A stretch of DNA of 12,477 nt. Source: a virus. Shown here piece after piece: positions 50 to 12,477 of this stretch. The stretch lies in the UHGV virus genome UHGV-0072520; one strand, written 5' to 3'. The notes below the pieces were generated by a model. It saw only the letters and a program-made list of their open reading frames with translations, was not told the origin of the DNA and did not search any database. How positions within the stretch are numbered: position 1 is the stretch's first letter; every line of letters begins with the position of its first letter. Made by a program: the position numbers and the translations under genes.

Positions 50-412
50 ATGTTAAAGCTATTTGCAAAGTACACCTCGATTGGTGTGCTGAACACACTT
101 ATACACTGGGTGGTTTTTGGTGTATGTATTTATGCCGCGCATACAAATCAGGCTCTGGCAAACTTCGCAGGTTTCATAGTAGCTGTGAGCTTTAGCTTCT
201 TCGCGAATGCAAGATTCACATTCAAAGCATCGACTACAACGATGCGCTACATGTTATACGTGGGATTCATGGGAACCTTGAGTGTTGTCGTCGGGTGGGC
301 TGCTGATAGATGTGCACTTCCCCCAATGGTCACCCTTATCACTTTCTCCGCCATCAGCCTGGTGTGCGGTTTCGTATATTCAAAGTTCATTGTCTTTAGG
401 GATGCGAAATGA
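50..412 (+). CDS. gtrA: GtrA, bactoprenol-linked glucose translocase (flippase), small polytopic membrane protein
   Basis: 120-aa hydrophobic ORF; N- and C-terminal sequence ([24 protein letters not shown] ... [13 protein letters not shown]) recognised as GtrA of serotype-converting Shigella/E. coli phages. Its stop overlaps the next start (ATGA at 409-412), indicating translational coupling. Confidence 0.88.
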
Positions 413-1335
413 AGATATCTCTTGTAGTTCCTGTCTTCAATGAAGAAGAAGCGATACCAATTTTTTATAAAACGGTACGTGAATTCGAAGAGTTGAAGCC
501 ATATGAGGTGGAAATTGTTTTCATAAATGACGGCAGCAAAGACTCTACAGAGTCAATAATTAACGCTCTGGCTGTTTCTGATCCGCTAGTTGTTCCGCTG
601 TCATTTACCAGAAACTTTGGTAAAGAACCTGCGCTGTTCGCTGGTCTTGATCACGCAACTGGTGAGGCGATTATCCCGATTGACGTTGACTTACAGGATC
701 CAATAGAAGTTATTCCTCACCTGATTGAGAAATGGCAACAAGGTGCGGACATGGTTCTGGCTAAACGCTCTGACCGCTCTACTGATGGTCGATTGAAGCG
801 CAAAACAGCTGAGTGGTTCTATAAGCTACATAATAAAATAAGCAATCCGCAAATTGAGGAGAACGTCGGAGACTTCCGTCTGATGTCTCGTGAAGTAGTT
901 GAAAATATCAAGCTTTTACCCGAGCGTAATCTGTTCATGAAAGGTGTGCTTAGCTGGGTTGGCGGCCGTACTGATGTTGTCGAATATGCACGCGCTGAGC
1001 GTGTTGCTGGTAGCACTAAATTCAACGGATGGAAGTTGTGGAATTTGGCACTTGAAGGAATAACCAGCTTCTCTACATTCCCATTACGCATCTGGACTTA
1101 CATCGGCCTTCTCGTTGCTGGAGTTTCGTTCCTTTACGGAGCTTGGATGATTATTGACACACTTGCATTTGGTAATGCTGTCAGAGGCTATCCTTCCCTT
1201 CTCGTTTCCATATTATTCCTTGGTGGAATTCAGCTAATCGGCATTGGTGTTTTAGGGGAATATATTGGAAGAATTTATGTAGAAGCAAAACATCGCCCAA
1301 GATATTTAATTAAAAAGGAAAAACATGAAAAATAA
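409..1335 (+). CDS. gtrB: GtrB, bactoprenol glucosyltransferase (GT2 family)
   Basis: 308-aa ORF beginning [20 protein letters not shown] with FINDGSKD and DVDLQDP motifs typical of GT2 undecaprenyl-phosphate glucosyltransferases, plus C-terminal transmembrane segments; directly follows gtrA. Confidence 0.9.
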
Positions 1336-2629
1336 TAACACACATATAATGATAATCATATATGCTTTAGTTATATGCATGCTTACATCAAATGTTTTTA
1401 TGATTAATACTAGTGATTTTTACAGATCGGTATTTCCTTTCATAGGTGAAATAAATACATTTGATGGAAATCTAACACTAAATTATGAATTAAAAAAAGA
1501 TTTTTTGAGTGTTTTCTCCTATGATTACATTAGCTCTTATAGTTACATCTTATATATTTATGCTTATATTATTTCTTTCTTTACAAATTATTTAGATTTG
1601 AGATTGCTATCAAGTATTCTTAAGATTATTTTTATAATAACATTATACTCATTATTTAGAAATATCACCAAGGAAAATGGCGCTAAATTTTTGGCGATAT
1701 TTTTCATAATCGCTCTCCCTATGCTATCAACCTCAAACCTAGCATTCTTCTCATCTTTTTATCAAGAGCAAATAGTAATCATAGCATTACCAATAGTCTC
1801 TTTATTTATAAGCGGCAATAATAAAAAAGATATACTCATTACTTTCATAGCTGCCACCCTCATAGCTTGCTCAAAGAGCCAGTTCTTTTACCTTCCGTTA
1901 ATAATAGCAATAGCTTATGGCATATTTAATCGAGATATGTTTAAGTTTAAAATTTTATTAACAGTTTTATCAATGTCGCTTTCTTTAATGTGCATTTGGG
2001 GTTCCTCTGGTGCGGCAGCATTTAATAAATACCATGCAAATTATTTTGGTATATATGAATATGCAAAAATCAATAATATTGAGATCGAACAAAACGTAGA
2101 CCAAAAATGCATTGGCGTAGATGCGTGGGGAAATAAATTTAATCTAGAACATGGAGCTATACAAACAACTTTAGGTGGCGATTGTTTTGGTAGAAATACT
2201 TCTGCTGGTTTCGTCGATGTAATTAGATGGGTCGCTAAAAACCCCAGCATTATTTATAATCTTCCAGTTGATGCCGGGATTAAAACACAATATACTGAAA
2301 ATTATTTCCATGTATTTAATGGAATAAAATTAATACAGGGGAATACAGGGGCATTGTCATACTTAACTGAAGTCAAGGATTATTTATTTAAAGATCTTAG
2401 GTTTGTTATTTTATTCATTACAATGTTGTTATCAATCATCTTCATTAGAAAGAAACTCTCAATTTTACTCTTTACCGTATGCTCGTTTGGGACATCACAG
2501 TTATACGTCTCTTTTTTTGGCGAGGGTTACAGAGATTTAGACAAACATCTTTTCGGGATGAATTTCGCATTCGACTTAACTATATTTATCGTGATGTGTC
2601 TTTTAGTTAGATTAAAATTCAAAAAATAA
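1325..2629 (+). CDS. Type-specific O-antigen glucosyltransferase (GtrC-type), polytopic membrane protein; serotype specificity undetermined
   Basis: 434-aa highly hydrophobic ORF immediately after gtrAB, the canonical position of the type-specific gtr gene. Strikingly AT-rich compared with flanking DNA. Start overlaps the gtrB stop by 11 nt; an alternative in-frame ATG lies at 1349. Confidence 0.72.
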
Positions 2630-2660
2630 AATATTGCTGCGCCATGATTAACATGGCGCA
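2621..2660 (-). terminator. Intrinsic terminator between convergent gtrC and tailspike genes
   Basis: Perfect 9-bp inverted repeat tgcgccatg / catggcgca (2638-2646 and 2652-2660) with 5-nt loop attaa. The + strand A-run at 2621-2636 gives a U-tract for - strand transcripts just past the tailspike stop. May act weakly on + strand transcripts too. Confidence 0.5.
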
Positions 2661-2666
2661 AATTAC

Positions 2667-4628
2667 TCACCAGTCTGCTAAAACTATCGCCCCACGCATA
2701 AATGCACGGTAAAAAGGAGATTCCCCTGCAGGGAAGCTGAAATGGAGAACTGGTGCTTCCCCAACAGCGTAATAATCTTCCGGTTTGAATCCAAACATAA
2801 ACGTTTGGCTTGAAGAAAGAGTCACACTTGCAATATCTTGATAGCGAATACCGTCTTTGCTTTTACCCATAAGAAAAAGTCCGTTTATAGGATTCCCGCC
2901 ATTAAGATTGGATATCTCAAGCCAAGCCCCTACGCCCTTACTGTAGCTACTGCAAAGACATAGAGATGCATCAGAAGTTTTAAAAGCAACTCCACTGACA
3001 TCGACTCCTTGCTGGGTGGTTTCATGGTCCCCATCACCAGAGCCACTTAATATCCTAGTTGGCCATGCATTCTTCGTAATTGTCTGGTCACTTGAGCTTG
3101 GATCCGCAGGCATAACATCCTTAAGCAATTCCTGTAGTGGCCAATGTTTACCACTGCCGGCTCCACCAAATAGATAGGTCTTTGTTTTTAGCTGTCTTGG
3201 ATAAGACTTGGATGCTAGTTTAGTAACTAACTCTTGAAGTATTCGATTAGTGCGTATCCTGTCAGTAATACCTGGGTCAGCTTCACCATCCCATACAAAT
3301 GCACCAAAATTCCCATTGCCCGCAGCGCCAAATATTTCAGCGCCTCCAACTACCTGATCAATATCACCACTTATATTGCTTCCACTAAATAGAAACGCAC
3401 CAACTACAGGGATAACATTAGGAATTTCAGTCATTTTGGAAATTACACCAAAATCTAATCTCATTTTCACAAGATCGGCGTTAATTCTGGTTTGTAAATC
3501 TCCTGTTGCAGCAGTTGAATATGAGTTAACTAAAGCCAGATCATAATTTTTTGAATACCATTGATTGAACGGTCCGCCAGGAGGAAGTTGGCACACCATA
3601 AGCAATGTTTTGTTTGTAACACTACGAAGAGTTTCAATCTTTGCATCCTGATCTGCAACACTGATCCCTCTAGCGCCTGGCTCGTCATATACTGCATATG
3701 CTACAACCGCAGGATGAGTGTCTATGGATTTAACAAAACTTGGCAGATCAGATATAGCAAGCGGGTCTTGTTCGGTTCCGATAGAAACTTTTAGACCTGC
3801 TGTTAAAGCATTATCTAATAACTTAAACTTGTCGCCTTCATCATCTACAGAACCACTAAACCCCAAATAATGGTGGATACTATTAAATCCTAATTGCTTT
3901 ATAAATAACAACTCAGCCAAGTCATAAGCAGAGCTAACGTAACAAATTTTCACTTTTGCATCGAAAGATACATCTACTTCTGAAGTCGCTAATATTGATC
4001 CAAGATTGTAGCGAGTCGTGTTAATCTTAAAATTACCGATTAATTTCTGCCCCTTAGATTTCAGCTTTTTTGTGATTTTATACTCTTTGTCTTTGATTCC
4101 TACAACATCCTTCCCAGTATCAAATGCAGCCTGAATGGCGTCTGACCAATCATCATCAACAACAAGATTTGCATAATCTTCGATGTAAGCATATACATCA
4201 CTACGCTTATTAAGGTTGTCTATATCAGTCTGCTTTGCGGCCCCATTTACTAAATCCACACCACCAGGTGCAGCAAGCTCCTGTCTTAACTGATCAGGAT
4301 CGTACTTCAGCACATTAGGAAAATAGAATTGCTGTGCACCATACGCATCATAACCAGCCATAGAATGGCCTTGCACGGTAACGAATTTGGCAATCTGTCC
4401 GTTATATACAGGATAACCAGCAGCGTTAATGATGATTGGTTGAGAAACAGGAACGTGAGAGCCGTCTTCGTTCTCTATATAAACCTGAATCTGGTTTTCA
4501 GGATTTACCGGGTCCGTGTCAATTTTACCGATATAAATTTTGCCATTGGCTACGGCTTTAAAAGAACGCGCCATAGTGAAGAGTTGCGATGGCATTGATA
4601 CGATCACATTGGCTGTAATGTCTGTCAT
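2667..4628 (-). CDS. Tailspike protein: P22-type N-terminal head-binding domain, divergent C-terminal receptor-binding/depolymerase domain
   Basis: 653-aa ORF. The first ~115 aa ([13 protein letters not shown] ... [38 protein letters not shown] ... [13 protein letters not shown] ... NVLKYDPDQ) closely resemble the conserved head-binding domain of P22/Sf6/HK620 tailspikes as I recall them. The remainder is not recognisably the P22 endorhamnosidase. RBS GGAG lies 8 nt upstream of the ATG on the - strand. Confidence 0.85.
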
Positions 4629-4686
4629 TTAATTTGCTCCAGATACAAGGAATAGCCGCAGCATGGCTACGGTGAATTTTGGGCAT

Positions 4687-4709
4687 AAAAAAACCCAGCC
4701 GAAGCTGGG
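4687..4709 (-). terminator. Intrinsic terminator (- strand) upstream of the tailspike gene
   Basis: Stem cccagc / gctggg (4694-4699 and 4704-4709) with loop cgaa. Seven A's at 4687-4693 on the + strand give a U7 tract directly after the hairpin on the - strand. Confidence 0.5.
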
Positions 4710-4761
4710 TCGTTGCGTTGGTTATCTGTCAGTAGTTATGTACTGGCTGAAGGATTTGTAC

Positions 4762-4792
4762 AAAAAAACCACCTGACGGTGGGTTAATTTTT
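4762..4792. terminator. Putative bidirectional intrinsic terminator
   Basis: Stem ccacc / ggtgg (4769-4773 and 4778-4782) with loop tgac, flanked by an A7 run upstream (4762-4768) and ttaattttt downstream (4784-4792), so either strand gets a U-rich tail. Confidence 0.45.
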
Positions 4793-4810
4793 GCATTTAC
4801 CTGGGCCATA

Positions 4811-4839
4811 TTGACTACTTATAAAATGAGATCAATATT
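4811..4839 (+). promoter_or_regulatory. Candidate sigma70 promoter for the small + strand gene
   Basis: TTGACT (4811-4816), 17-nt spacer, AATATT (4834-4839); the -35 matches consensus at 5 of 6 positions and the -10 at 4 of 6. Lies about 35 nt upstream of the ATG at 4876. By-eye match only. Confidence 0.3.
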
Positions 4840-4875
4840 TAATCGCCCAATAATGGGTGTATGTTGAGGTATATC

Positions 4876-5055
4876 ATGGCGAAAAAACCAGGTGAAAACA
4901 CAGGAAAAAACGGCGGAATATACCAAGAAGTTGGCCCACGCGGCGGTAAGAAAGACAATTTTGCCACCGTCAAGGACAACGAAAGGCTTCCACCAACAAC
5001 AAAGCCAGGTCATGGCTGGGTATTGGATAAGCGAACTCCAGACAGCAAAAAGTAA
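4876..5055 (+). CDS. Small YjzC-like protein (function unknown)
   Basis: 59-aa ORF MAKKPGENTGKNGGIYQEVGPRGG ... LPPTTKPGHGWVLDKRTP. The G-x-Y-x-E-V-G ... W ... KRTP pattern resembles the YjzC-like small-protein family as I recall it. GAGG RBS 5 nt upstream of the ATG at 4876 (the ORF track's upstream ATG at 4861 lacks an RBS). A terminator follows. Confidence 0.5.
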   Translation: MAKKPGENTGKNGGIYQEVGPRGGKKDNFATVKDNERLPPTTKPGHGWVLDKRTPDSKK

Positions 5056-5968: not shown

Positions 5969-7816
5969 TTATTGCTGTTCTGCTGTAATTTGGCTTGAAA
6001 GTATAGGGCGTATCGCATTTGCAGCATTATTTAGCGCTCTTTCATAGGCTGGTGTTCCTGCTTTGGTGTTTGCCAAACGTAAGAGAGCATTCCTTGCTGC
6101 TTTTGACTCATACAAGCGCATCATTGCACCGAAACCAGCCTCAAGCCCCATTGATACGCCAAGAGTCGCAGTTGCGCCAATCGTCCTTATCCTGTTGGCT
6201 TGCGATTGCCCCGTCTGAGTTACTACATTTGCGGTGTCTGACCTTGCTGTTTGCTGTAGAACTTCATGAAGAGAATCAAGCTCTTTCATGTGCTTTCCAG
6301 AAAAAATAGTGTTGTAAATTTCACCGCCTGACTGAGATTTCAGCTTATTAACTTCAGTGATGAACTTGGCTGGAGAGTCCCCGGCCTTTTCCGCTATTTT
6401 GCTGACGTAAGCTGCACGCATAGCATCTTTCCCCTTATCATCCAGTGCGCTCCAGATTCGTTTCACGTCAGATGGTTTTCTGCTTAATACAACGGTATTT
6501 ATAAGTTCAGGACTGGCTTCACTGCTTGCCTTGTTGAGCTTGTTGGCAATGTTTTTATTAAGCACCTTATTATAAACGTTTGCATAATCGGAATTTGCTT
6601 TAAGGTATTTTGCTGCGTCTGATGCACCGAGGTTTTTAGCAACTGCGTTACGAAGGTCTTTTGACATTGCATTCTCTACCATATTGGTAGCTGCTTTTGC
6701 CTGGTTGGGGAAGACCATAGCATCTCCCTGAACATTAGATCTAAATGCTGTTCTGTGCTGACGCAAGAGATCAAACGTAACATCCAAATCAGTTGCAGGG
6801 TTTGCTAATTCTTCACGTAGGTTACGCAAGGATGTAAGCAGGCTTTGATTGGCAGACGTCCCAAGCCGTTCCTGTCTTGCGATCGCTGTATTCAGAGCAT
6901 TCATGGTATTTGTTGTATCAACTGCGGCATTACCCATTTTATTGGTGACGTCATTGATAACAGCGCCAGCGGCATCCTTCCGTCCCCTTAACGTGGTGGT
7001 CAGAGATTTCACCACATCATCAGGGTTGTACTCACCAAAACGGTCAAAATAATTACTTACCAGTTTACTACGCGTTGCATATTGCTCCGCTCGCTTTGAT
7101 CCTGTCCCGAGCAAAGCCCCCTCGGCATCCTGAGTAAGGCCGCGAGTGAAAGCATTTTTCGGTGGGATGACATCAGATGTCATTGGCGTCACACCCATTG
7201 ATTCTGAGGTGGCAATTTTTTTCGCTACTTCTGGCGCGATATCGCCTTTTATAGCCGTTATTCCACGCCCTATTCCCTTTGCTGCTGCGGAAAGAACACC
7301 CTGAGCGGCAAGGTTAACTCCGGCATTTTTAGCTGCATTTTGTGCGAAATCGCCTTTCTGATTTGCGGCCTCTGCCAGTGAGCCAATAGCCATGCTTCCT
7401 GCCGTTCCAACTCCTGGAACTAAATACCCGCCAATTGTTTCTCCAGCTTGCGCATAAGGGTCTGTCGGTCGATCGACAGGGCGATAAACATCATCCAAAA
7501 CCTTGGGGCCACCAAGCCCCTGGCTGATTGCATTAATCAGACTTGCGCCACCCTGCAATACGTCAAATGGTATGTTTACCAGACCACGACCAGCCTGTTC
7601 TGCAATTTGCCCTGCACTTTGACCACCAGTGAGCCAATCGCCAGCTTGTTGCATCAATGATGGTTCTTCCCGTGTTGGTGCATTATTGGCCTGATTAACT
7701 GTTTGTTGCTGAACAGCCTGACCAGCAAAATACTCATCAATGGCGGTGCCAATATCTTCGGTGCTCGTACCATCAGGAAAGGTAAATGTCTTACCGTTTG
7801 CAGTTACTTTCATCAT
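5969..7816 (-). CDS. Ejection (DNA-transfer/injection) protein, P22 gp16-like
   Basis: 615-aa Ala/Gly/Gln-rich ORF without obvious enzymatic motifs, upstream of and co-oriented with the tailspike, matching the position and approximate size of P22 gene 16. Start overlaps the upstream stop (ATGA at 7813-7816). Assignment is by synteny and composition, not verified homology. Confidence 0.6.
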
Positions 7817-8805
7817 TCCACCGTAAATTGAATGCCTGATTTTGAGGTATATGATCCGGATTGACTCTGCTGCTGTTGGGTATTTGTCGGTTGTTGGTTA
7901 TTGCTCTGTTGTTGACTATTTGCAGCACTTGAAACCACCAAAGCATCATAAACGCGACCAGACTGACCACGTAATGAGTTATATTGGCCCTGCATTTTTC
8001 GCATTTTTGTTTCAGTAGCAGCCTTGGAATCACCAGGCTGAGGCAGGTACATTTTGGAATACTCCTGCATCTCTGGCAGAGTAATTGCTGCACCTGTTTC
8101 TGGGCGCAAAATTGCATACAAGGCGTCTCTCGCATTTACCATATATTGCTGCTCCGCTGGTGATAGGCTTAAATTTGCAATAGTCCCATCACCAAGAGAG
8201 CGATTTATTAATGCAACTCGCTTAGGGTCAATGCTTTTACTAAGCTGATTCATTGAGTCCATTGAATCTTTTAATCGCAAAGCAAATCCTGCCGCCTTCT
8301 TGGAACCCTCATTAGCCTTATCTATGATGCTTTGCGCTTGTGGCAAACTAATTGGTTTAATGCCATCACCAGATATAGGTTGGTTTAGTTTTCCGGCTTC
8401 CTCGCTGCCATCGGTGTAATACTTAGTTACCGAGCCATCAGGATTGGTTTCAACCTTAAGTAATTTCTTAGCATTGGGATTAATTCCCGCCGCTGCCGCA
8501 AATGCCGCTGCACCATCTGGATCCGCCTTTAACATTTGCGCGTACTGATTGTAATTCTGCATTGCGACTGTTGGTGCATATGCTGACGTTAACGCATTTG
8601 CTCGGCTAATATCCTGCCCTCTCGCCTGAAGTGCCTCGCCAGCCTGATTGCTGCGGATTGTCTCTGCCAGTCTGCCTCGGTCAATCTCACGACCAGCCAT
8701 CTTGTCCTGAACAGCAAACGCCTTTTCTGGTCCAAGCGCACCGAGAGACATAGTAGTCAGCATGTGTGATAGCTGCTCTGGATTCTGGATACCTGTCTGA
8801 ATCAT
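7813..8805 (-). CDS. Ejection protein, P22 gp20-like, apparently missing its 5' end
   Basis: 330-aa ORF from the first ATG, but the frame stays open upstream to 8919 with no start codon, which suggests the N-terminal coding part was deleted. Translationally coupled to the gp16-like gene. Assignment is by synteny. Confidence 0.5.
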
Positions 8806-8835
8806 CCAGTCAGCATTAGCACCAACGCGATTTAA

Positions 8836-9192
8836 CCTGTCCTTGTTGTCAGTAATGAATTTACTGTAGGCTTCCGGTCCCTGAGAAAGAGCGACGTTAC
8901 CGTAATAGTCCCCTGTCGGTTAGGGAAGCTGCGTGTTGAGCTGGAAGCAACAGAGAACAACCTCATTGATAGTGAATGCCATGTTGCTGAACTGGAAGAA
9001 GCACTACGCGACAAGCAGGCGTTACTTGAAGCCTCAGAAAAGCGCATAGCAGAACAAAGCTCGATTGTTACAGCCGCTGAAAAACTGGTTCGCTGTAAAG
9101 GCCGCTATCACAGTGAGCAAAACTATCGTGCGCTGGCTGCATTGTTTGGCGTAACAGTGCCGGATTTACCACCACTGCAAGCAGATGATTAA
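8836..9192 (+). pseudogene. 3' fragment of an early-region gene (coiled-coil C-terminus), no start codon
   Basis: Open frame 8836-9189 with no ATG/GTG/TTG start. It encodes ...KLRVELEATENNLIDSECHVAELEEALRDKQALLEASEKRIAEQ...LFGVTVPDLPPLQADD and ends 10 nt before the next gene with operon-like spacing (AAGGA RBS at 9191-9195). Confidence 0.35.
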
Positions 9193-9202
9193 GGACTAAC
9201 CT

Positions 9203-9775
9203 ATGACCACTATTACCAAAGAGCGACTACTGACAATCAAGCAGTGGCGCGAAACATACGGACCTGGTAGCAACGTTGTACTGCCAGCAGAAGAAGCGGA
9301 AGAACTGGCACGAATTGCTCTGGCATCGCTGGAAGCAGAACCTGTAAGCCAAACTTACAACTTGCCACAAACGCACTTTGAACAGGTTGCTGACCTTTAC
9401 GAAATGCAATTTGATGACGGACGCACTTGTGCCTTTCATACTGATGCACAAAAGGCTGCGCAATGGCTTCGGGCATGCGACGGAAACAGGGTTCAGGAAT
9501 ACGTGAAACTGGAGCGACTGCAGAACGCGCTATCGGGCAACTCTCCGGTAATTCCGGATAGTTGGATAAGCTGTAGTGAGCGAATGCCGGAAAAGAATCA
9601 GAACGTGCTTATTTCGGTGAATTTCGATAGCTCTCTGGTTGAACCGCTAATATGCTCCGCACGCTATACCGGAAGCACCTTTCGGCGCGGAGATGCAACG
9701 ATTAAGCCGGGTAATGGTATTGAGCAAGCAACTCACTGGATTCCGCTACCGGAACCGCCGCAGGAGGCGAAATGA
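9203..9775 (+). CDS. DUF551-like phage early protein
   Basis: 190-aa ORF whose C-terminus (WISCSERMPEKNQNVLI ... ATHWIPLPEPP) matches the DUF551 signature common in lambdoid/P22-like early regions, as I recall it. AAGGA RBS 7 nt upstream. Confidence 0.68.
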   Translation: MTTITKERLLTIKQWRETYGPGSNVVLPAEEAEELARIALASLEAEPVSQTYNLPQTHFEQVADLYEMQFDDGRTCAFHTDAQKAAQWLRACDGNRVQEYVKLERLQNALSGNSPVIPDSWISCSERMPEKNQNVLISVNFDSSLVEPLICSARYTGSTFRRGDATIKPGNGIEQATHWIPLPEPPQEAK

Positions 9776-10683: not shown

Positions 10684-10695
10684 ATGGAGATGATT

Positions 10696-10995
10696 ATGGC
10701 CTGTTCAACATTCAACCCTCTAACGTTACAGAAATACCAGCCAGCCCCTGAAGATTTATGCTCACTGTGTGGCGGAAATCATGGTAAAGCCGCCATGATT
10801 GAATGTAAGGACAAAATCCACATTTGCCTTAATTGCGTTGATGTCCTCGTTGATATCAAAAATGAGAGAGAAGATAAAAAGCGTAGCGAGGCTGTTCGAG
10901 CCTTAGATTCATGGATGCGAGATGGGTATAGTGCCGCGCAAATTTATGACTTAGCAATATCAAAAGGCGAAATACCAGGAGTGCGCATCGAATAA
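10696..10995 (+). CDS. Cys-rich small protein, possible zinc-ribbon
   Basis: ORF with paired CxxC motifs (CSLCGG ... CLNC) separated by about 18 residues. Start chosen at the ATG at 10696 with GGAG 6 nt upstream; the ORF track begins at 10684. Confidence 0.5.
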   Translation: MACSTFNPLTLQKYQPAPEDLCSLCGGNHGKAAMIECKDKIHICLNCVDVLVDIKNEREDKKRSEAVRALDSWMRDGYSAAQIYDLAISKGEIPGVRIE

Positions 10996-11035: not shown

Positions 11036-11061
11036 AAGCCGCCTGATGGCGGTTTATTTTT
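11036..11061 (+). terminator. Intrinsic terminator
   Basis: Stem ccgcc / ggcgg (11039-11043 and 11048-11052) with loop tgat, extendable by A-T pairs, followed by tttattttt. Confidence 0.55.
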
Positions 11062-11076
11062 GCCTGGAGAATTAAG

Positions 11077-11268
11077 ATGACCGATACCAGCCTGATTCCT
11101 GAGAAAGAAGTGATGAACAAGCTCGGTGTTTCATCACGTCAGACAATCTGGAACTATACCAAACGGCACGGATTTCCGAAGCCAGTCAGAACCCACCCCA
11201 AATCATACCTTCGTGAAGCTGTTGAGGGGTGGATTCTTAACGGTGGCGTTAATCAGAAATGCTCCTGA
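11077..11268 (+). CDS. AlpA-family phage transcriptional regulator / putative excisionase (HTH)
   Basis: 63-aa ORF MTDTSLIPEKEVMNKLGVSSRQTIWNYTKRHGFPKPV..., typical of AlpA/Xis-like small HTH proteins next to P4-type integrases. GGAG RBS at 11065-11068. Confidence 0.75.
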   Translation: MTDTSLIPEKEVMNKLGVSSRQTIWNYTKRHGFPKPVRTHPKSYLREAVEGWILNGGVNQKCS

Positions 11269-12427
11269 TGTGCCAGAACAATTTATCAGCGTGAAGCTCA
11301 TACGCTTTGCGCTGAGCCTCTATCCAGTCGTGTTTATTGTATACGGACATTATCCCGCCAAGTTCATGACCGAGCATTCGCTCAGTAACATGAGGCTCGA
11401 CATTCATCTCGGACAGACGTGTAACAAGCGTTCTTCTGAAATCATGTGTTCGCCAGTAACCTATATCCATCCCTCCCCTTATTCTATTTACGAATCGGTT
11501 GGCTGCAGCGATGCTGATCGGTTTGTTTATGTCTTCTCCAGGGAAAAGAACATCATTGTACGTTGTCATGGCCTTTTCGAGGAAAGGCTTAATTTGTTCG
11601 AAGATTGGACGGCGGATAACATTACCCATCTTGCTATGCTCTTTCGGTACGGTCCATACGTTTTCCAGCAGGTCAAATTCTGTCTTTTTTGCCAGCCTAA
11701 GCTCTGAGAGCCTCGCCCCCCACATCATAAGCATCTGATGAAGTAGCTTATTTGACGTAGACGCACGGCTTCTTTCAATAGCAAGCCAAATCTTAGCCAG
11801 TTCGTGATACGACAGTACCCGATCCCCTACCTCAGCGCGGGAGCCGAAGTCCCTTGGTTGGATGCTCATAATTGCGCAACTATCTATCAACTGACGCCGC
11901 ATGCACCAACTTATTGCTGACCTTAGTTGACTTAGCACCTGCCTTGCTCGGCGTGGATTATCTCTTTCTTCTTCGGTAAGCAGGTCAACCCATTGCTTAA
12001 CCGTGATAGAAGATGCCGGACGATTAGGAAAGGCGTCATGCATGCGCTTCATAACCGTTGATCGGTAAAGTGCCTGGGTCTTTTCTCTGAGAGTTGTAGA
12101 GACGTAGTTGTCGAACCAGTAGTCGAGACACTGGGCGACCGTCATGGAGTTCTCCACCTTCTCTTCAAAATAAGTGCGTGGATCCGTTCCTGAGAAATAG
12201 AGCTTTCGCAAGTCAGCAGTGATCTGTCTGGCATCCTTCAAAGACAGGGATGGGTATCGACCAAGCCCAAGTCGATTAGGCTTGCCATGCCAGCGATAGC
12301 GGTACTGGAACTGGATGACCCCCTTCGGTGAAATTCGTACGCTGAGGCCATCGGCATCAGCCACTTCTTGTGGGCCCGAATATGGTTTACCATAAATAGT
12401 ACGCAGTTTTGTGTCGCTTATAGCCAT
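11249..12427 (-). CDS. int: Tyrosine site-specific integrase, P4-type (DUF4102-like N-terminal arm-binding domain)
   Basis: 392 aa. N-terminus (SDTKLR ... DGLSVRISPKG ... YRYRWHGK ... LGLGRYPSLSLKDAR) fits the P4-family integrase pattern. C-terminal catalytic residues are visible: HDFRRT (H-x-x-R) and the tyrosine in MSVYNKHDW. Confidence 0.92.
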   Translation of the reverse strand: MAISDTKLRTIYGKPYSGPQEVADADGLSVRISPKGVIQFQYRYRWHGKPNRLGLGRYPSLSLKDARQITADLRKLYFSGTDPRTYFEEKVENSMTVAQCLDYWFDNYVSTTLREKTQALYRSTVMKRMHDAFPNRPASSITVKQWVDLLTEEERDNPRRARQVLSQLRSAISWCMRRQLIDSCAIMSIQPRDFGSRAEVGDRVLSYHELAKIWLAIERSRASTSNKLLHQMLMMWGARLSELRLAKKTEFDLLENVWTVPKEHSKMGNVIRRPIFEQIKPFLEKAMTTYNDVLFPGEDINKPISIAAANRFVNRIRGGMDIGYWRTHDFRRTLVTRLSEMNVEPHVTERMLGHELGGIMSVYNKHDWIEAQRKAYELHADKLFWHIRSISD

Positions 12428-12435
12428 AAATAATA

Positions 12436-12477
12436 TTTGGTACGCTCAGAAATAATGGTTTGGTACACATCTGGTAC
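12436..12477. repeat. Three direct copies of TGGTAC just outside the integrase 5' end (possible arm-type sites)
   Basis: TTTGGTAC at 12436-12443 and 12459-12466, and TGGTAC at 12472-12477, all in direct orientation at the window edge. Confidence 0.25.

What the first reader, a model, noticed from the sequence alone, without database searches (positions are those of the whole stretch)
11249..11268. AlpA-family gene and integrase are convergent and overlap by 20 bp at their 3' ends
AlpA-type regulators/excisionases are normally co-directional with their P4-type integrase. Here the two reading frames converge and share 20 nt, so transcripts would be mutually antisense at the 3' ends. That could couple integrase and excisionase expression through transcriptional interference or antisense RNA.
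Basis: seen in the sequence. Interest (0 to 1): 0.4.

Follow-up and report, generated by a model that had tools for sequence, protein, structure and literature searches.

The report
Tail-to-tail phage integrase and excisionase genes
The 20-base overlap between the integrase gene and a small AlpA-like gene is real, but it is the usual conserved layout of a known phage integrase/excisionase pair (the Shiga-toxin phage Φ24B type), and no available evidence shows that the overlap itself regulates anything.

Summary
Observation confirmed. A 63-aa ORF (11077..11268, +) and a 392-aa tyrosine integrase (11249..12427, -) converge and share 20 nt.

The small ORF is a real gene:
- It has a GGAG ribosome-binding site.
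- It is 47% identical to the experimentally validated excisionase (Xis) of Stx phage Φ24B.
- Its family profile matches an AlpA-family structure (PDB 8c3t) and P4 Vis.

The integrase is 56% identical to Φ24B Int. Φ24B's own record shows the same tail-to-tail geometry with a 17-nt overlap, and HK140 and Sf101 carry this exact module.

Among 80 species-representative genomes with an Int homologue, 53 had a convergent Xis homologue at the int 3' end. Fifty of those overlap, mostly by 14, 17, 20 or 23 nt.

The published Φ24B model explains the orientation. Int has its own att-side promoter, independent of the phage repressor CI. Xis is the last gene of the repressor-controlled early-left (pL) operon.

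Antisense coupling through the overlap is possible but unsupported:
- Φ24B RNA-seq shows xis up 51-fold on induction and int unchanged.
- Some lineages lack the overlap.
- I found no conserved terminator and no synonymous-site constraint beyond the overlap.

The window itself is a deleted prophage lacking pL and N. Low interest; a new member of a known kind.

The parts
11077..11268 (+). xis: 63-aa AlpA/Vis-family winged-helix excisionase (recombination directionality factor), last gene of the early-left gene string
   Evidence: ORF. 47% identical to validated Φ24B Xis. PHROG 66 E=1.9e-8. Profile hit to PDB 8c3t AlpA-family protein E=3e-5. hhalign to P4 Vis 93.9%. Homologues in about 46 species all carry Shine-Dalgarno sequences.
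11249..12427 (-). int: 392-aa P4-like tyrosine integrase (sbcB-integrating HK140/mEp234/Sf101/2851 type)
   Evidence: Pfam Arm-DNA-bind_3 8e-18 and Phage_integrase 6e-17. 56% identical to Φ24B Int. 25% identical to P4 Int, E=3e-13. About 99% DNA identity to HK140, Sf101 and 2851. The lysogen locus lies next to sbcB.
11249..11268 (.). 20-nt 3' overlap coding both tails (Xis ...VNQKCS*, Int ...IRSISD*); the int stop TAA lies antisense within the Xis Val-Asn codons
   Evidence: Sequence. Overlaps of 14, 17, 20 or 23 nt are conserved across Enterobacterales. Raised synonymous conservation is confined to these codons.
11036..11062 (+). Intrinsic terminator hairpin (AAGCCGCC-TGAT-GGCGGTTT plus T run) just upstream of xis; possibly weakly bidirectional
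   Evidence: Terminator scan. Annotated as a rho-independent terminator in HK140. Lineage-specific: only 4 of 46 related loci have one.
11066..11069 (+). GGAG ribosome-binding site of xis, 7 nt before the ATG
   Evidence: Sequence. Equivalent SD motifs occur in homologues.
12436..12477 (.). Three TTTGGTAC(G/A)C-like direct repeats directly upstream of the int start codon (the third is cut by the window end); candidate Int arm-type sites overlapping the int promoter/leader
   Evidence: Sequence. The same repeats occur on both sides of the 13-bp attP core in HK140. The core sequence is from PMC4159516. Function is inferred by analogy with KplE1 intS (PMC2951348).

Best explanation
This is the recombination module of a lambdoid/P22-like prophage, of the type characterised in Stx phage Φ24B.

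The integrase is a P4-like tyrosine recombinase. It is transcribed from its own promoter next to the attachment site, reading into the phage. That makes it independent of the phage repressor and probably autoregulated through arm-type sites in its leader.

The 63-aa AlpA/Vis-family protein is the excisionase. It is the last gene of the leftward early (pL) operon, so it is made only after induction. In this lineage it also sits behind an intrinsic terminator that would need N antitermination.

Because the two units run towards each other and phage genomes are tightly packed, the genes meet tail to tail and share 14-23 nt. These nucleotides encode the short, loosely conserved C-terminal tails of both proteins. 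Direction of recombination is set simply by whether Xis is present.

The overlap is most likely an inherited compaction feature held in place by dual coding. It makes the mRNA 3' ends complementary, but nothing shows that this is used for regulation.

Shown: gene identities, geometry, conservation across species, and the Φ24B experiments on a 47-56% identical homologue. Inferred: the promoter position, autoregulation and N-dependence in this lineage, and the neutrality of the overlap.
For: - Geometry and domains.
- The same module is annotated in HK140 and Sf101.
- Φ24B record: int 236..1405 (+), xis 1389..1571 (-), a 17-nt overlap.
- Int 56% and Xis 47% identical to Φ24B.
- Fogg et al. 2011 (PMC3064807): int is inverted relative to lambda; pInt was mapped by 5'-RACE; int is expressed in lysogens and not repressed by CI; Xis function was shown by excision assays with int and xis under separate heterologous promoters.
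- Survey of 80 genomes: 53 have a convergent Xis homologue and 50 of those overlap.
- One further locus has a convergent Xis displaced about 0.84 kb downstream by an inserted ORF.
- Synonymous constraint is raised only inside the overlap.
- Terminator upstream of xis.
- Arm-type-like repeats at the int leader. Precedent for autoregulated att-proximal int promoters: PMC2951348.
Against: - No experiment exists on the HK140/mEp234/Sf101-type pair itself. Promoter, terminator use and autoregulation are inferred.
- Neutrality of the overlap is argued from absence of evidence.
- Conservation in 50 of 53 loci could equally reflect selection for the overlap.
- Unchanged int mRNA in induced Φ24B could hide a per-copy decrease, because phage DNA copy number rises after induction.
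- In this particular window pL, N and the repressor are deleted, so the normal control of xis cannot operate here.
Confidence: 0.75

Rival explanations
1. The overlap is a regulatory device. Convergent transcription and complementary 3' ends would couple the two genes. One version: the int mRNA 3' region, antisense to xis, silences leaky xis in the lysogen. Another version: strong pL/N read-through across xis into antisense int shuts int down after induction, through polymerase collision or RNase III cleavage of the duplex.
For: - No terminator can lie between the genes, so full-length transcripts must be complementary.
- No conserved terminator stops int transcription beyond xis.
- The overlap is conserved in 50 of 53 loci over wide divergence.
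- Lambda has precedents for 3' antisense and RNase III control (OOP RNA on cII; sib on int). This is established knowledge, not tested here.
- Unchanged int mRNA despite phage DNA amplification after induction could be read as per-copy repression.
Against: - Φ24B RNA-seq: xis up 51-fold (p=0.002), int 1.73-fold (p=0.27).
- Three lineages have a gap instead of an overlap, and one has a 0.8-kb insertion between the genes.
- No synonymous-site constraint or conserved hairpin beyond the dual-coded codons.
- No Rfam match in the window.
- Φ24B Int and Xis work when expressed from separate promoters.
- The papers on Φ24B do not mention overlap or antisense effects.
Confidence: 0.15
2. The AlpA-like protein acts mainly as a transcriptional activator of int, as AlpA does for intA in CP4-57, rather than as an architectural excisionase.
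For: AlpA/Vis family membership. P4 Vis is annotated as both excisionase and regulator. Repeats lie near the int leader where a regulator could bind.
Against: In Φ24B, int is expressed without Xis and is unchanged when xis rises 51-fold. Xis was required for excision even when Int was supplied from an arabinose promoter. The window protein is only 29% identical to AlpA over 55 residues (E=0.028).
Confidence: 0.06
3. The small ORF is a mis-call and there is no real overlap.
For: The Pfam AlpA hit is below the curated threshold. NCBIfam gives no hit. Some phage records leave the ORF unannotated.
Against: The ORF is conserved with a Shine-Dalgarno sequence in about 46 species. It is homologous to an experimentally validated Xis. 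The stop codon, and so the overlap, does not depend on which start codon is chosen.
Confidence: 0.02

Closest known systems
Φ24B (vB_EcoP_24B) Int/Xis module of Stx2 phages (Fogg et al. 2011, PMC3064807; GenBank HM208303)
   Same: P4-like Int with Arm-DNA-binding and catalytic domains. A 60-63-aa AlpA-like Xis. Tail-to-tail orientation with a 3' overlap (17 nt there, 20 nt here). xis at the end of the early-left gene string. Int 56% and Xis 47% identical.
   Different: Different integration specificity: the sbcB site with a 13-bp core here, whereas Φ24B is promiscuous per the paper. An intrinsic terminator sits in front of xis in this lineage. No experiments exist on this pair. Here the module sits in a deleted P22-like prophage.
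HK140, Sf101 and Stx phage Stx2a_WGPS8 (mEp234, HK544, 1717 and 2851 carry the same DNA)
   Same: The same int-xis DNA at about 99% identity. An identical 63-aa protein is found in Sf101, HK544, mEp234, Stx2a_WGPS8 and 1717. The identical 20-nt overlap was confirmed by coordinates in HK140 and Sf101.
   Different: Those are intact phages with pL/N/immunity regions. The window is a remnant lacking them. In the RefSeq records HK140, mEp234, HK544, Sf101 and Stx2a_WGPS8 the small gene is labelled only 'AlpA family regulatory protein'. The 1717 and 2851 records label it 'hypothetical protein' or leave it unannotated under the match.
KplE1 (CPS-53)/HK620 IntS-TorI module (Panis et al. 2010, PMC2951348)
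   Same: Integrase transcribed from a dedicated promoter overlapping the att region, with no shared promoter with the RDF. The RDF is a small winged-helix protein. Excision is controlled by RDF supply.
   Different: In KplE1 the RDF gene lies at the opposite prophage end, across attP from int, so the genes are neither adjacent nor overlapping. Autoregulation is demonstrated there and only inferred here.
Phage lambda int-xis with sib retroregulation, and OOP antisense RNA on cII
   Same: Xis is made from the N-antiterminated pL transcript. RNA-level 3' control of recombination or lysogeny genes is a precedent for the antisense idea (established knowledge).
   Different: Lambda xis and int are co-directional, overlapping and co-transcribed. 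Lambda Xis belongs to a different Pfam family. No sib-like or OOP-like element was found here.
CP4-57 AlpA/IntA and satellite phage P4 Vis/Int
   Same: The same protein families: an AlpA/Vis HTH and a P4-type integrase with an arm-binding domain.
   Different: In those elements the genes are co-directional and not adjacent. AlpA is a transcriptional activator of intA. Sequence identity to them is low: 25% for Int and 29% over 55 residues for AlpA.

Membership tests
AlpA/Vis-family excisionase (Pfam PF05930; PHROG 66) | Sequence match to the family model | tested here: met
   The single sequence is below the Pfam cut-off (17.8 against 21 bits). PHROG 66 gives E=1.9e-8. A 30-sequence profile hits PDB 8c3t 'AlpA family phage regulatory protein' over positions 4-56 (E=3e-5) and P4 Vis (hhalign 93.9%, E=1.6e-7).
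AlpA/Vis-family excisionase (Pfam PF05930; PHROG 66) | Small (about 60-90 aa) protein encoded next to its cognate tyrosine integrase | tested here: met
   63 aa, directly abutting int. The same holds in 53 of 80 related loci.
AlpA/Vis-family excisionase (Pfam PF05930; PHROG 66) | Required for, and directs, excisive recombination | not testable with these tools
   Shown only for the 47%-identical Φ24B Xis (PMC3064807).
Φ24B-type Int/Xis recombination module | Int homologous over its full length to Φ24B Int, with an arm-binding domain | tested here: met
   56% identity over 391 aa, E=1e-170. Arm-DNA-bind_3 plus Phage_integrase.
Φ24B-type Int/Xis recombination module | int inverted relative to lambda; xis convergent at the int 3' end and oriented with the early-left genes | tested here: met
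   Upstream + strand genes (DUF551, ASCH and others) run towards xis.
Φ24B-type Int/Xis recombination module | int transcribed from its own CI-independent promoter; xis under pL/CI control | not testable with these tools
   The window ends 50 nt upstream of the int ATG and lacks pL, N and cI. This is inferred from Φ24B 5'-RACE and qPCR.
P4-like tyrosine integrase | N-terminal DUF4102/Arm-DNA-bind_3 domain plus a C-terminal tyrosine-recombinase catalytic domain | tested here: met
   Pfam E=8e-18 and 6e-17. 25% identity to P4 Int, E=3e-13. Conserved H-x-x-R and the C-terminal HDW/Y region are seen in alignment A1.
cis-antisense / convergent-transcription regulatory pair (for example lambda OOP-cII) | One transcript's level measurably depends on transcription of the opposing one | tested here: inconclusive
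   Only indirect data exist. Published Φ24B RNA-seq shows int 1.73-fold (not significant) while xis rises 51-fold, without copy-number normalisation. No data exist for this lineage.
cis-antisense / convergent-transcription regulatory pair (for example lambda OOP-cII) | A conserved RNA element (terminator, hairpin or processing site) beyond what coding requires | tested here: not met
   No conserved terminator (4-5 of 46 loci). Synonymous sites are at baseline outside the overlap. No Rfam hit. The 5-bp hairpin in the overlap is not conserved.

The most novel reading that the evidence does not exclude
The 14-23-nt tail-to-tail overlap, conserved from Escherichia to Xenorhabdus, Gilliamella and some Vibrio, is selected as a switch-sharpening device. 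In the lysogen, constitutive int transcripts running antisense through xis would quench leaky Xis and stabilise lysogeny. After induction, N-modified pL transcription running antisense through int and its promoter would shut off Int per genome copy, favouring excision over re-integration. This would be a functional analogue of lambda sib retroregulation, built from gene geometry alone.
Probability: 0.12. Interest if true: 0.5.

Novelty: new member of a known kind. Interest (0 to 1): 0.2.

Why it matters
The practical value is correct annotation. The small 'AlpA family regulator' or 'hypothetical protein' next to this very common E. coli/Shigella prophage integrase (the sbcB site; HK140, mEp234, Sf101 and Stx phages 1717 and 2851) is the homologue of the validated Φ24B excisionase, and the tail-to-tail overlap is its normal layout.

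If the overlap did turn out to regulate Int or Xis, it would show how Stx and serotype-converting prophages tune stability against excision without lambda's sib mechanism. Present evidence does not point that way.

Tried and rejected
- The Pfam and NCBIfam single-sequence scans of the small ORF were sub-threshold or empty. I resolved this with PHROGs, a family profile against PDB, and hhalign.
I did not pursue it, as sequence evidence sufficed.
- I looked for a conserved terminator upstream of xis, on either strand, that could define the transcript ends. It is present in the E. coli lineage only (4 of 46 on the xis strand, 5 of 46 on the int strand).
- I looked for extended synonymous-site constraint in int's last 70 codons and in all of xis, as a sign of an embedded RNA element. 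None was found outside the overlap.
- The Rfam scan of the whole window at E<=1 gave nothing.
- Folding both strands around the overlap gave modest z-scores (-2.8 and -2.2). The 5-bp hairpin in the overlap is not conserved in relatives.
- Literature searches for convergent or antisense int/xis regulation returned no paper on such regulation, judged by title and abstract. The Φ24B excisionase paper (PMC3064807) does not contain 'overlap', 'convergent' or 'antisense'. In the Φ24B recombination paper (PMC7581858) 'antisense' is absent and the only 'overlap' refers to the lambda attB core.
- From memory I thought CP4-57 alpA was convergent with intA. The K-12 annotation shows them co-directional, so I dropped that argument.
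- The 13-bp attP core is not inside the window.

Full report
**1. The observation**

The mechanical ORF list shows a + strand ORF at 11077..11268 (63 aa, ATG) and a - strand ORF at 11249..12427 (392 aa). Reading the sequence confirms that each stop codon lies inside the other frame:
- + strand: ...GGT GGC GTT AAT CAG AAA TGC TCC TGA (Xis ...GGVNQKCS*).
- - strand: ...TTC TGG CAC ATC AGG AGC ATT TCT GAT TAA (Int ...FWHIRSISD*).

The shared stretch is exactly 11249..11268, 20 nt. A GGAG lies 7 nt before the ATG of the small ORF. An intrinsic terminator hairpin (11036-11062) lies just upstream.

**2. What the two genes are**

The large ORF has Arm-DNA-bind_3 (E=8e-18) and Phage_integrase (E=6e-17) domains. 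It is 25% identical to P4 Int (E=3e-13), so it is a P4-like tyrosine integrase.

The small ORF alone is below the Pfam AlpA cut-off (17.8 against 21 bits) and has no NCBIfam hit. Other evidence places it firmly:
- It matches PHROG 66 'excisionase and transcriptional regulator' (E=1.9e-8).
- A 30-sequence family alignment (A2) hits PDB 8c3t 'AlpA family phage regulatory protein' over nearly its whole length (E=3e-5).
- The same alignment matches P4 Vis by hhalign (93.9%).

Most telling, the small ORF is 47% identical to the annotated excisionase of Stx phage Φ24B, and the integrase is 56% identical to Φ24B Int over its full length. Fogg et al. 2011 (PMC3064807) found that Xis as the only candidate ORF at the 3' side of int. 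They linked it to PF05930 by HHpred and showed by plasmid excision assays that it is needed together with Int for excision.

**3. The arrangement is already on record**

The int-xis DNA of the window is about 99% identical to phages HK140, mEp234, APC_JM3.2, Sf101 and Stx phages 1717 and 2851.
- In HK140 the annotation reads AlpA family regulatory protein 3253..3444 (+) and site-specific integrase 3425..4603 (-), the same 20-nt overlap. A rho-independent terminator is annotated just upstream.
- Sf101 is the same.
- The lysogen locus lies next to sbcB. This agrees with the Sf101 paper, which gives a 13-bp attP core and integration in sbcB (PMC4159516).
- In Φ24B itself, int is 236..1405 (+) and xis 1389..1571 (-), tail to tail with a 17-nt overlap. 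Stx2 phage 86 has the same layout.

It is not true for this family.

**4. How conserved the overlap is**

tblastn of the 63-aa protein against phage records found 167 records. In most listed rows the match lies over an annotated integrase, in phages of Cronobacter, Klebsiella, Salmonella, Proteus and Hafnia. Coordinates give 20 nt (ENT39118, Klebsiella ST16-OXA48phi5.3, SEN34) and 23 nt (Proteus Brookers). Two phages with a different, larger integrase keep xis convergent but not overlapping.

I then collected 80 loci, one per bacterial species, that encode Int homologues of 41-99% identity. In each I searched for a convergent Xis homologue near the int stop. Fifty-three loci have one. The spacing was:

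| Overlap or gap | Loci |
|---|---|
| 20 nt overlap | 22 |
| 17 nt overlap | 13 |
| 23 nt overlap | 8 |
| 14 nt overlap | 3 |
| 11 nt overlap | 1 |
| 4 nt overlap | 2 |
| 54 nt overlap | 1 |
| gap of 2, 20 or 25 nt | 3 |

One further locus has the Xis gene displaced 0.8 kb by an inserted ORF. The remaining loci, mostly Vibrionaceae islands, have other cargo next to int.

The tails are recognisably conserved: Xis ...W(I/L)xxGG(V/I)N(Q/R)xxS* and Int ...FWH(I/V)(K/R)(K/Q)(L/I)(S/G)(G/D)*. The int stop is created antisense within the Xis Val/Ile-Asn codons (for example GTTAAC or GTTGAC). All Xis homologues carry a Shine-Dalgarno sequence.

So the overlap is real, old and typical of the family. 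It is also dispensable in some lineages.

**5. How it most likely works**

For Φ24B it was shown that int is inverted relative to lambda and has its own promoter, mapped by 5'-RACE. It is expressed in lysogens and is not repressed by CI. Xis is oriented like lambda xis and is placed under pL/CI control. More generally, integrases whose promoter overlaps attL are the majority class among tRNA-associated integrases and are negatively autoregulated (PMC2951348).

Here, three TTTGGTAC(G/A)C repeats lie directly upstream of the int ATG (window 12436-12477). Two more lie beyond the attP core in HK140. These look like arm-type sites, which would fit autoregulation; that is an inference.

The terminator before xis suggests that in this lineage Xis needs N-antiterminated pL transcription. 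That terminator is not a family feature (4 of 46 loci).

The simplest reading is that direction of recombination is set by Xis supply alone. The tail-to-tail meeting of two independently controlled units, in a compact genome, produced an overlap of the two short C-terminal tails, and dual coding now keeps it in place.

**6. The antisense-coupling idea**

It is true that full-length transcripts must be complementary, and that nothing conserved stops either polymerase. The tests I could make do not support a selected RNA-level function:
- Synonymous-site conservation in 34 non-redundant homologues is at baseline throughout xis and the last 70 int codons, except in the dual-coded codons.
- No hairpin or terminator is conserved.
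- Rfam finds nothing.
- Overlap-free lineages exist.
- In the published Φ24B transcriptome, xis rose 51-fold (p=0.002) on norfloxacin induction, whereas int changed 1.73-fold (p=0.27) and is listed among the unaltered genes.
- Int and Xis also work when expressed from separate promoters.

There are caveats. Complementarity needs no sequence conservation. The RNA-seq was not normalised for the rise in phage copy number, so a per-copy decrease of int cannot be excluded. I leave about 0.12-0.15 probability for a functional coupling.

**7. Context of this window**

The window is not an intact phage.
- It carries gtrA, gtrB and a third membrane-protein ORF in the position of the type-specific gtr gene (+, 50-2629), a P22-type tailspike (-, 2667-4628), gene 16 and a 5'-truncated gene 20 (-, to about 8899).
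- Gene 20 is joined at about 8900-8916 to the 3' part of an Ea22-like ORF.
- The distal early-left genes follow: DUF551, a homologue of a DUF4752 protein, ASCH, two small ORFs, xis, and then int.
- The immunity region, pL, N, and the replication, lysis and head genes are absent.
- This junction was not found in 5,426 complete E. coli genomes.

In this remnant xis therefore has lost its normal promoter, so any interplay at the overlap is probably moot here.

**8. Verdict**

The feature is the normal, conserved layout of a known recombination module: the Φ24B type, identical to the HK140/mEp234/Sf101/2851 module. It is a new (uncharacterised) member of a known kind, of low interest. A modest, testable possibility remains that the overlap contributes to control of excision.

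Noticed in passing
window 7813-9203 (junction about 8900-8916): The window is a deleted P22-like prophage. Gene 20 (DNA transfer protein) lacks about 390 nt of its 5' end and is fused to the 3' part of an ead/Ea22-like ORF on the other strand. The immunity region, pL/N, and the replication, lysis and head genes are missing. The junction is absent from 5,426 complete E. coli genomes.
   Followed up: partly
window 50-4628: An O-antigen modification cassette lies next to a P22-type tailspike with a head-binding domain (2667-4628, -). It comprises gtrA (50-412), a gtrB family-2 glycosyltransferase (409-1335) and a 434-aa membrane protein (1325-2629) that is presumably the type-specific Gtr.
   Followed up: no
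window 12436-12477; L001 (HK140) 4612-4656 and 4884-4907: TTTGGTAC(G/A)C direct repeats occur three times immediately upstream of the int start and twice on the far side of the 13-bp attP core. They are candidate Int arm-type sites overlapping the int promoter/leader, which suggests negative autoregulation as in KplE1 intS.
   Followed up: partly
L001 (HK140) about 4785-4831; L002 4967-5011: The phage attP region carries a surrogate 5' end for the host sbcB gene. In the lysogen, sbcB starts MTDTDKQPTFLFHDY..., with the first ~15 codons supplied by phage DNA up to the core. Early-left read-through past xis and antisense int would enter sbcB in the sense direction.
   Followed up: partly
window 11036-11062: The intrinsic terminator directly before xis is specific to the E. 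coli HK140/mEp234 lineage (4 of 46 related loci have one). On the minus strand the same hairpin is followed by a moderately T-rich tail, so it could act weakly in both directions.
   Followed up: partly
L008 (vB_EcoS-716R3) 2501-5000; L009 (Klebsiella phage 1 LV-2017): Xis homologues (44-46% identical) also occur with a different, larger integrase (441 aa, next to tRNA-Arg in L008). They are still convergent, but in L008 an extra gene separates them. This suggests that Xis and Int modules have been exchanged independently.
   Followed up: no
window 10684-10995: A 103-aa cysteine-rich ORF just upstream of the terminator and xis matches PHROG 3680 (unknown function, E=1e-68) and has no Pfam hit.
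   Followed up: no
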